Assembly: GCA_938049385.1 (NCBI GenBank)
Contig: CALIBQ010000025.1
Location: 427 to 64,426, forward strand
DNA: 64,000 nt
Origin: an uncultured Anaerolineae bacterium
Lineage (GTDB): Bacteria > Chloroflexota > Anaerolineae > JACIWP01
Reading direction: 5' to 3'
The translations under genes and the position numbers were made by a program. Positions within the stretch are counted from its first letter, which is position 1, and each line of letters opens with the position of its first letter. Below the pieces are notes generated by a model, which was not told where the DNA came from, searched no databases, and saw nothing but the letters and a program-made list of their open reading frames with translations. Of this stretch, positions 37,070 through 37,415 are shown piece by piece.

Positions 37070-37415
37070 CTCTGAAAACAACGAATGCCCGCAAGGGCAT
37101 TACGACCCACCGTGTGGTGGCGGCCTGCGGGCGAGTACCGTATTCACTCTGAAAACAACGAATGCCCGCAAGGGCATTACGACTGCATGCCGGACCGGGT
37201 CCGGCATACAACAATTTTCCCTCCCTCTCTGAAAACAACGAATGCCCGCAAGGGCATTACGACCCAACAAAAGGCCAAGGAGCTTGGTTTTGCCGACGAC
37301 GATACTCTGAAAACAACGAATGCCCGCAAGGGCATTACGACGTCGATTCGCTAGTAGGGGCGACTCATGAGTCGCCCCTACCGAAAACAACGAATGCCCG
37401 CAAGGGCATCTGACC
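37070..37415 (+). CRISPR. CRISPR-like mini-array: four perfect copies plus one degenerate terminal copy of a 37-nt repeat, with 37-43-nt variable units. No cas genes in the window
   Basis: Repeat CTCTGAAAACAACGAATGCCCGCAAGGGCATTACGAC (internal hairpin ATGCCC-gcaa-GGGCAT) at 37070-37106, 37147-37183, 37227-37263 and 37305-37341. A degenerate copy taccGAAAACAACGAATGCCCGCAAGGGCATcTgACc lies at 37379-37415. Variable units are 40, 43, 41 and 37 nt. Confidence 0.6.

What the first reader, a model, noticed from the sequence alone, without database searches (positions are those of the whole stretch)
37070..37415. CRISPR-like mini-array in which every variable unit is itself a hairpin: orphan array or novel tandem structured-RNA locus?
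The array has four perfect 37-nt repeats with internal stem ATGCCC/GGGCAT and a degenerate fifth copy. It has a promoter on the leader side and a terminator on the trailer side, all consistent with + strand transcription. No cas gene lies within 36 kb upstream or 27 kb downstream. All four 'spacers' contain inverted repeats:
- S1: CCACC-gtgt-GGTGG.
- S2: ATGCCGGACC-g-GGTCCGGCAT, a 10-bp perfect palindrome.
- S3: AAAA-gg-CCAAG-gag-CTTGG-TTTT.
- S4: GTAGGGGCGACTC-atg-GAGTCGCCCCTAC, a 13-bp perfect palindrome.
Random protospacers would almost never give palindromes of 10 bp or more in two of four units. The spacers may have been captured from palindromic targets such as terminators, REP-like elements or phage cos/operator sites. 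Alternatively this is not an adaptive-immunity array but a repetitive RNA whose variable hairpins are functional.
Basis: seen in the sequence. Interest (0 to 1): 0.75.

Follow-up and report, generated by a model that had tools for sequence, protein, structure and literature searches.

The report
Stand-alone type III CRISPR array
This is a genuine but ordinary four-spacer CRISPR array: a second array of a type III-A (Csm) immune system whose cas genes lie outside this window. Only two of its four spacers are unusually palindromic, and one of those captured a widespread 28-base 'GTAG' palindromic repeat.

Summary
The array is real: four identical 37-nt repeats, a degenerate fifth, a consensus promoter upstream and a strong terminator hairpin downstream. 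It is a normal CRISPR array, not a new structured-RNA locus.

- **cas link.** In related Anaerolineae assemblies the identical repeat and a homologous promoter and leader lie directly downstream of a complete type III-A operon (cas10, csm2-5, csx1, cas6, cas1, cas2).
- **Spacer turnover.** The same chromosomal site (greA | leader | array | DUF7033 gene) in sister lineages carries 0, 4, 11 or 25 spacers in complete arrays, and at least 13 and 18 in arrays cut by a contig end. The spacer sets differ, with partial sharing between some strains.
- **Orientation.** Spacers are preferentially antisense to ribosome-binding-site/start-codon regions and to coding sequence, as expected for RNA-targeting type III systems.
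- **Hairpins.** "Every spacer is a hairpin" is overstated. S1 and S3 fold no better than shuffled sequence; S2 and S4 are real outliers.
- **S4.** It contains a complete 28-nt GTAG-headed palindrome that occurs identically in 54 metagenome contigs, and as close variants, multicopy, in viral contigs.
- **S2.** Its complement reads as a ribosome-binding site plus ATG.

No cas gene lies in the 64 kb; whether the genome has one is untestable here. A modest (about 3-fold) excess of inverted repeats in this system's spacers is the only unexplained residue.

The parts
36805..36832 (+). Leader promoter, TTGACA-16 nt-TATAAT with TG extension
   Evidence: 12/12 consensus match. The -35 TTGACA and the -10 are conserved in sister greA-locus arrays and in the cas2-proximal leaders.
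36848..37069 (+). CRISPR leader (transcribed)
   Evidence: Aligns with the leader between cas2 and the array in L003/L044 and with the leaders of L006-L017. 36848-36960 is almost invariant.
36871..36946 (+). Leader hairpin 1 (19-nt arms, 95% complementary)
   Evidence: the repeat finder I1. The sequence is nearly invariant in all leaders. Its function was not tested.
36982..37061 (+). Leader hairpin 2 (17-nt arms, 88% complementary)
   Evidence: the repeat finder I2. This region varies among lineages.
37070..37106 (+). Repeat 1
37107..37146 (+). Spacer 1 (40 nt), structure at chance level
   Evidence: no match in the viral or phage collections
37147..37183 (+). Repeat 2
37184..37226 (+). Spacer 2 (43 nt). 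It has a 10-bp perfect stem. Its reverse complement reads AGGGAGGG-N11-ATG CCG GAC..., a ribosome-binding site plus start codon.
   Evidence: read directly from the sequence; no exact match in the viral or metagenome collections
37227..37263 (+). Repeat 3
37264..37304 (+). Spacer 3 (41 nt), structure at chance level
   Evidence: no viral match
37305..37341 (+). Repeat 4
37342..37381 (+). Spacer 4 (oldest, 37-40 nt depending on the register of the degenerate repeat)
37354..37381 (.). 28-nt perfect GTAG-headed palindrome GTAGGGGCGACTCATGAGTCGCCCCTAC inside spacer 4. It is a copy of a widely dispersed REP-like element.
   Evidence: Identical in 54 metagenome contigs with unrelated flanks. 26/28 variants are multicopy in IMG/VR contigs. 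A variant sits in the last spacer of L001.
37379..37415 (+). Degenerate terminal repeat (hairpin intact, both ends diverged)
   Evidence: 79% identity to the reference copy
37425..37469 (.). Terminator hairpin, probably bidirectional, shared with the convergent DUF7033 gene that ends at 37496
   Evidence: I4; -34.8 kcal/mol, z -5.2, followed by CUUUCUUU

Best explanation
The locus is a bona fide CRISPR array with its own promoter and leader. It is a secondary array of a type III-A (Csm) CRISPR-Cas system of an uncultured Anaerolineae bacterium.

Proposed mechanism:
1. Transcription starts just downstream of the promoter at 36805-36832 and runs on the + strand through the roughly 230-nt leader and the array to the hairpin at about 37430-37465.
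2. Cas6 cuts each repeat at the hairpin, presumably leaving the 8-nt 5' tag AUUACGAC.
3. The crRNAs load into a Csm complex encoded elsewhere and base-pair with transcripts of invading elements.
4. New spacers are added next to the leader by Cas1-Cas2 acting in trans.

What is shown:
- Repeat and leader homology to cas-adjacent arrays.
- Spacer turnover at this site.
- The antisense-to-mRNA bias of the spacers.

What is inferred: transcription, Cas6 processing, and the presence of cas genes in this particular genome.

The palindromes:
- S4 is a normal-length spacer taken from DNA carrying a dispersed 28-nt GTAG-type palindromic repeat.
- S2 most likely comes from the 5' end of a foreign gene that happens to hold a 10-bp inverted repeat.
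- S1 and S3 are unremarkable.
For: 1. A genome-collection scan with the repeat core hit only Anaerolineae MAGs.
   - L003 has cas6-cas1-cas2, then a leader, then the identical repeat.
   - L004 has cas1-cas2, a leader and a 4-mismatch variant of the repeat.
2. The identical Cas1 (P0038) sits on 12 contigs in the operon CARF-HTH, cas10, csm2, csm3, csm4, csm5, csx1, a 126-aa ORF, cas6, cas1, cas2, followed by an array with the same repeat and at least 49 spacers.
3. The window's promoter and leader (36805-37069) align with those cas2-proximal leaders. The homology starts inside the 3' end of cas2.
4. Contigs carrying LysRS proteins of the same 90%-identity cluster show the same synteny, lysS-greA-leader-array-DUF7033.
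   - Complete arrays hold 4, 11 or 25 spacers; two arrays cut by a contig end hold at least 13 and at least 18; one allele has no array.
   - Spacer sets differ. L006 and L013 share two trailer-side spacers, and L012 and L017 share their first four.
   - None of the window's spacers recurs.
5. Flanking genes are only 83-91% identical to those strains, yet the 37-nt repeat is 100% identical. This argues for ongoing selection.
6. A Shine-Dalgarno-plus-start motif occurs in the reverse complement of 10 of 121 spacers against 1 in the sense strand. Pentapeptide-repeat coding potential occurs in 5 against 0. This is the type III signature and confirms + strand transcription.
7. cas-operon contigs and greA-locus array contigs co-occur in the same samples: JGI 3300031749 (L048 and L007) and ERZ27249349 (L049 and L010).
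Against: - No cas gene lies within the 64 kb, and the rest of the genome could not be examined. The array could be a stranded remnant in this particular organism.
- No full-length protospacer was found for any of the four spacers.
- The array is short (4 spacers).
- One sister lineage (L020) has lost the leader and array.
- Another relative (L001) has lost cas1, cas2 and the leader. Decay therefore does occur in this family.
Confidence: 0.9

Rival explanations
1. True orphan: the array is a decaying remnant in a genome that has no cognate cas genes. It may be transcribed but is not processed or used.
For: - No cas gene in 64 kb.
- Only four spacers and a degenerate last repeat.
- Relatives show loss of the array (L020) and loss of cas1, cas2 and the leader (L001).
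Against: - Four repeats are 100% identical to each other and to cas-linked repeats of another species, while neighbouring genes have diverged to 83-91%.
- The promoter is a perfect consensus.
- Sister lineages have long, fast-changing arrays at the same site, and the cas operon is present in the same samples.
Confidence: 0.25
2. Non-CRISPR tandem structured-RNA locus in which the variable hairpins are the functional parts.
For: - S2 and S4 form very stable hairpins.
- The transcription unit has a promoter and a terminator.
Against: - The variable units are completely different in every related strain.
- S1 and S3 fold no better than shuffles.
- Repeat and leader are those of cas1-cas2-adjacent arrays.
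- No Rfam family matches.
Confidence: 0.01
3. The palindromes reflect a property of this adaptation module: Cas1-Cas2 of this type III-A system preferentially captures or retains hairpin-forming DNA, including whole REP-like palindromes. They would then not be chance sampling of palindrome-rich targets.
For: - 19 of 116 spacers of this system have a perfect inverted repeat of 7 bp or more. The rate is 4.5% in host 42-mers and 5.5-6.3% in viral 42-mers (p about 1e-4 to 2e-5).
- The mean folding z-score is -0.57 for spacers against -0.13 for the genome.
- A GTAG palindrome fills the oldest spacer of two independent arrays in different registers.
Against: - About a third of the excess comes from spacers against pentapeptide-repeat genes, whose GGCGCC motifs are self-complementary.
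- The related L001 array shows no excess (1 of 37).
- The true source genomes are unknown, so the baseline is uncertain.
Confidence: 0.15

Closest known systems
Type III-A (Csm) CRISPR-Cas arrays processed by Cas6 (for example Staphylococcus epidermidis, Thermus thermophilus)
   Same: - 37-nt repeat with an internal hairpin.
- 36-48-nt spacers.
- Leader with its own promoter.
- Identical repeat next to cas10, csm2-5, csx1, cas6, cas1 and cas2 in relatives.
- Spacers antisense to mRNAs.
   Different: - This copy stands alone between greA and a DUF7033 gene, at least 27-36 kb from any cas gene.
- Its leader is long (about 230 nt) and carries two long hairpins.
Secondary or 'orphan' CRISPR arrays served in trans by a distant cas operon (common in multi-array genomes)
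   Same: - Stand-alone leader plus array sharing repeat and leader with the cas-adjacent array.
- Active spacer turnover in sister strains.
   Different: Whether the cas operon exists in this genome is unknown.
GTAG-tagged repetitive extragenic palindromes (REPs; Di Nocera et al. 2013, PMC3733652)
   Same: - The 28-nt element in S4 starts with GTAG on both strands.
- It is a G+C-rich perfect palindrome within the 20-40-bp size range.
- It is dispersed, and multicopy in some contigs.
- The paper reports GTAG repeats in Chloroflexi.
   Different: - Here it is a single copy embedded in a CRISPR spacer, not an extragenic repeat of this window.
- The identical sequence occurs in contigs of very different G+C content, which is unusual for REPs.
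- No link to a RAYT transposase was tested.

Membership tests
CRISPR array | Near-identical direct repeats of 23-55 nt, regularly interspaced by unique spacers of similar length | tested here: met
   Four identical 37-nt repeats plus one degenerate copy; spacers of 37-43 nt; start-to-start spacing 74-80 nt
CRISPR array | The same repeat is found next to cas1-cas2 in related genomes | tested here: met
   L003, L044-L049 (identical repeat) and L004 (4 mismatches)
CRISPR array | Conserved leader with promoter on one side and degenerate repeat at the other end | tested here: met
CRISPR array | Spacer content varies between strains, with some spacers shared between related strains | tested here: met
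   0 to at least 25 spacers at the same greA/DUF7033 site. L006 and L013 share two trailer-side spacers; L012 and L017 share their first four
CRISPR array | Spacers match mobile genetic elements | tested here: inconclusive
   The S4 palindrome matches 26-28 of 28 nt in many viral and metagenome contigs, but its 12-nt flank does not. S1-S3 have no hits. One sister spacer matches only 24 of 37 nt in a viral contig.
CRISPR array | cas genes in the same genome | not testable with these tools
   None in the 64-kb window. The window is part of a 128,953-bp contig, and the rest could not be retrieved.
Type III-A (Csm) system | cas10/csm1 with csm2-csm5 linked to arrays with this repeat | tested here: met
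   Met in relatives, not in this genome: operon in L044-L046
Type III-A (Csm) system | crRNAs complementary to transcripts (spacers antisense to coding strands) | tested here: met
   SD-plus-start motif 10 against 1; pentapeptide coding 5 against 0; S2's complement reads as SD plus ATG
Type III-A (Csm) system | Mature crRNA with an 8-nt repeat-derived 5' tag | not testable with these tools
   Needs small-RNA sequencing; the predicted tag is AUUACGAC
GTAG-tagged REP (for the S4 palindrome only) | 20-40-bp palindrome ending in GTAG, present in many dispersed copies | tested here: met
   GTAG on both strands; 54 identical copies in metagenomes; up to 7 copies in one 14.8-kb viral contig; definition from PMC3733652
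GTAG-tagged REP (for the S4 palindrome only) | Association with a RAYT (IS200/IS605-like tyrosine transposase) gene | not tested
   No search for RAYT genes was made

The most novel reading that the evidence does not exclude
The Cas1-Cas2 module of this Anaerolineae type III-A system may have a real preference for acquiring or retaining hairpin-forming DNA. This would include whole 28-nt GTAG palindromic elements. Such elements sit as the oldest, retained spacer in two independent arrays, where they could act as broad-spectrum guides against any transcript carrying the element.
Probability: 0.12. Interest if true: 0.5.

Novelty: new member of a known kind. Interest (0 to 1): 0.15.

Why it matters
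It matters little beyond annotation. The locus should be labelled a CRISPR array (type III-A repeat family, cas in trans or lost), not a new RNA gene.

The comparison does give a clean natural example of a stand-alone array conserved at one chromosomal site across species while its spacers turn over. It also raises a small, testable question: why do spacers of this system carry about three times more inverted repeats than background, including entire REP-like palindromes?

Tried and rejected
- **Rfam.** The gathering-threshold scan of the whole window gave no hit. The permissive scan of 36780-37500 gave only chance-level hits far below threshold.
- **Self-targets.** No spacer matches elsewhere in the window beyond 13 nt.
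- **Protospacer searches.**
  - The INPHARED phage collection (blastn of the whole array) gave nothing.
  - IMG/VR exact scans for S1, S2, S3 and the exact S4 palindrome gave nothing.
  - A JGI metagenome scan for the junction of S2's palindrome with its unique part gave nothing.
  - A sister-strain spacer (first spacer of L044) gave nothing in IMG/VR.
  - A motif shared by two pentapeptide-type spacers hit one viral contig, but only 24 of 37 nt matched, in a gene that is not a pentapeptide-repeat gene. I treat this as chance.
- **Source record.** Exact-protein look-ups failed for two window proteins. A cluster look-up showed only that the contig is 128,953 bp, from NCBI/ENA.
- **Insertion model for S4.** I considered that S4 is a REP inserted into the array rather than an acquired spacer. 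I rejected this as less likely. Both S4 and the analogous L001 spacer have the normal 40-nt length, with the palindrome in different registers.
- **Inherited-spacer model.** I rejected the idea that the L001 and window terminal spacers are one ancestral spacer, because their flanks and registers differ.

Full report
**1. The observation**

Window 37070-37415 holds four identical copies of the 37-nt repeat CTCTGAAAACAACGAATGCCCGCAAGGGCATTACGAC, starting at 37070, 37147, 37227 and 37305. A degenerate fifth copy lies at 37379-37415. Start-to-start spacing is 74-80 nt. The 27-nt repeat core occurs five times against 0.00 expected in shuffles. The repeat folds into a 7-bp stem with a GCAA loop (-12.9 kcal/mol, z -4.5).

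The array lies in an 860-bp gap between greA (36071-36631, - strand) and a DUF7033 gene (37496-39010, - strand). The surrounding context is housekeeping: recA, recX, the RNase Y gene, lysS, a GH57 gene and polysaccharide-synthesis genes.

A perfect sigma-70 consensus lies at 36805-36832 on the + strand. A strong hairpin followed by CUUUCUUU lies at 37429-37469 (-34.8 kcal/mol, z -5.2). These parts of the finding are correct.

**2. The hairpin claim**

The claim that every variable unit is a hairpin is only half right.

| Spacer | Folding z-score against dinucleotide shuffles | Shuffles folding as well | Verdict |
|---|---|---|---|
| S1 | -0.22 | 76 of 200 | chance |
| S3 | -0.70 | 40 of 200 | chance |
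| S2 | -2.5 to -3.4 | 4 of 200 | outlier; 10-bp perfect stem |
| S4 | -5.3 | 0 of 200 | outlier; 28-nt perfect palindrome, 37354-37381 |

In 600 random 42-mers of the same window, stems of 10 bp or more occur in 0.33%. Two such stems in four spacers is therefore not chance.

**3. It is a CRISPR array of a type III-A system**

A scan of one genome per prokaryotic species with the repeat core hit only Anaerolineae MAGs.
- In L003 the identical repeat follows cas6, cas1, cas2 and a leader.
- In L004 a 4-mismatch variant follows cas1, cas2 and a leader.

The Cas1 of L003 is found unchanged on 12 contigs. There the full operon reads: CARF-HTH (Cas_NE0113), cas10, csm2, csm3, csm4, csm5, csx1 (MJ1674-like), a 126-aa ORF, cas6, cas1, cas2, leader, array. 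That array has the identical repeat and at least 49 spacers. This is a type III-A architecture.

The window's promoter and leader (36805-37069) align with these cas2-proximal leaders. The homology begins inside the last codons of cas2, and 36848-36960 is almost invariant. The window locus is therefore a paralogue of the cas-adjacent leader plus array, placed at another chromosomal site.

**4. Spacer turnover at the same site**

The window's LysRS belongs to a 90%-identity cluster. I fetched contigs carrying three other members of that cluster. They share the synteny lysS-greA-leader-array-DUF7033. The arrays differ in length:

| Locus | Spacers | Array complete? |
|---|---|---|
| L006 | 4 | yes |
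| L017 | 11 | yes |
| L013 | 25 | yes |
| L012 | at least 13 | cut by the contig end |
| L007 | at least 18 | cut by the contig end |
| L020 | none | leader and array deleted; a repeat remnant is left |

Many contigs break exactly at the array. L006 and L013 share two trailer-side spacers, and L012 and L017 share their first four. Otherwise the spacer sets differ, and none of the window's spacers recurs.

These strains are only 91% (lysS-greA) and 83% (DUF7033) identical to the window at the DNA level. The site therefore predates their divergence, yet the repeat is still 100% identical. It excludes a conserved structured-RNA locus.

cas-operon contigs and greA-locus array contigs occur in the same samples: JGI 3300031749 and ERZ27249349. 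This fits one organism carrying both loci, but does not prove it.

**5. Orientation and mode of action**

Among 121 unique spacers of this system:
- the reverse complement shows a Shine-Dalgarno-plus-start motif in 10, against 1 in the sense strand;
- the reverse complement shows pentapeptide-repeat coding potential in 5, against 0 in the sense strand.

crRNAs transcribed from the leader promoter are thus antisense to mRNAs, as expected for RNA-guided, transcript-sensing type III systems. The reverse complement of the window's S2 reads AGGGAGGG-N11-ATG CCG GAC CCG GTC CGG CAT, a ribosome-binding site plus start codon. S2 therefore fits the same pattern, and its inverted repeat lies in the first codons of the presumed target gene. 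This last step is an inference.

**6. Spacer 4**

The 28-nt palindrome GTAGGGGCGACTCATGAGTCGCCCCTAC is not unique to this locus.
- The identical sequence occurs in 54 metagenome contigs of G+C 0.42-0.66 with unrelated flanks.
- The variants GCGATT and GCAATT occur 28 times in 19 IMG/VR contigs, with up to 7 copies in 14.8 kb. Further near-copies occur in several of those contigs.

With GTAG at the 5' end of both strands and a G+C-rich stem, it matches the description of GTAG-tagged REPs. That paper reports GTAG repeats in Chloroflexi among other phyla (PMC3733652).

S4 has a normal spacer length: 12 nt of flank plus the 28-nt element. The last spacer of the array in L001 is 5 + 28 + 7 nt, holds the GCAATT variant, and lies between two degenerate repeats. 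L001 comes from another Anaerolinea species with a diverged repeat and RAMP and cas6 genes upstream. The different registers indicate independent acquisitions rather than inheritance or insertion.

Why such a spacer is the oldest one in two arrays is unexplained.

**7. A residual statistical oddity**

Excluding the window, 19 of 116 spacers of this system contain a perfect inverted repeat of 7 bp or more. The rate is 4.5% in host 42-mers and 5.5-6.3% in viral-contig 42-mers (p about 2e-5 to 2e-4). About a third of the excess comes from spacers against pentapeptide-repeat genes, whose GGCGCC units are self-complementary. The related L001 array shows no excess (1 of 37). Without the true target genomes I cannot tell an acquisition bias from target composition.

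**8. What could not be settled**

- No cas gene is in the window, and the rest of the 128,953-bp contig and genome was not retrievable. 'Orphan' against 'served in trans' therefore remains open. The perfect repeat identity and the consensus promoter favour a functional array.
- No full protospacer was found for S1-S3.

**9. Verdict**

This is a real feature and a routine one: a new instance of a known kind, a stand-alone type III-A CRISPR array. Interest is low. The only mildly novel thread is the excess of palindromic spacers, which includes whole REP-like elements.

Noticed in passing
window 37354-37381; L051-L104; L025-L043: A 28-nt perfect palindrome, GTAGGGGCGACTCATGAGTCGCCCCTAC, occurs with identical sequence in 54 metagenome contigs of G+C 0.42-0.66 with unrelated flanks. 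Close variants occur up to 7 times in a 14.8-kb viral contig (L036). Such wide distribution of one exact REP-like sequence is unusual.
   Followed up: partly
L001 961-988: The last spacer of an independent type III array in another Anaerolinea species lies between two degenerate repeats. It holds the GCAATT variant of the same palindrome in a different register.
   Followed up: partly
L006, L012, L013, L017 arrays: Many independent spacers are antisense to pentapeptide-repeat (A[D/N]Lxx) coding sequence. For example, the reverse complement of GTCGGCGCCGGTCATGTCGGCGCCAGTCAGGTCGGCGCC encodes GADLTGADMTGAD. This suggests a recurrent target gene family.
   Followed up: partly
L006, L013, L017: trailer between the last full repeat and the DUF7033 stop: The trailers contain truncated repeats (ATGCCCGCCAAGGCATTACGG) separated by duplicated copies of a hairpin unit (CCCCCCGAGTTCGGGGGG...). 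A run of roughly 35-nt hairpin-containing tandem units follows.
   Followed up: no
L020 4170-4420: A sister lineage lacks the leader and array at the greA/DUF7033 site. It keeps a repeat remnant (GGGCATTGCGAC) and GTAGGGGCGC...GCGCCCCTAC hairpins, indicating deletion of the array.
   Followed up: partly
L001 about 3760-3900 (- strand): About 40 N-terminal codons of cas1 (MPPLYIVQQGAKIRV...) run straight into the first repeat. RAMP and cas6 genes lie upstream. It looks as if the rest of cas1, cas2 and the leader were deleted.
   Followed up: partly
window 37084-37410, - strand: Read on the - strand, every repeat looks like an intrinsic terminator: a 7-bp stem followed by CGTTGTTTTC. This might block antisense read-through from the convergent DUF7033 gene.
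   Followed up: no
window 36871-36946 and 36982-37061: The roughly 230-nt transcribed leader contains two long hairpins. The first is almost invariant between cas-adjacent and stand-alone leaders of different species.
   Followed up: no
L002 959-995; 2444-2498 and 6845-6899: A solitary CRISPR repeat sits just upstream of a promoter-like site and a small ORF beginning MDALRFHSINPEENRYRFYV. The same contig has a 4.4-kb segment bounded by 55-nt GTAG...CTAC inverted repeats.
   Followed up: no
L010 (reverse strand, from position 2996): A leader plus a single repeat is followed by unrelated, apparently coding sequence. This could be an insertion, an array collapse or an assembly join.
   Followed up: no
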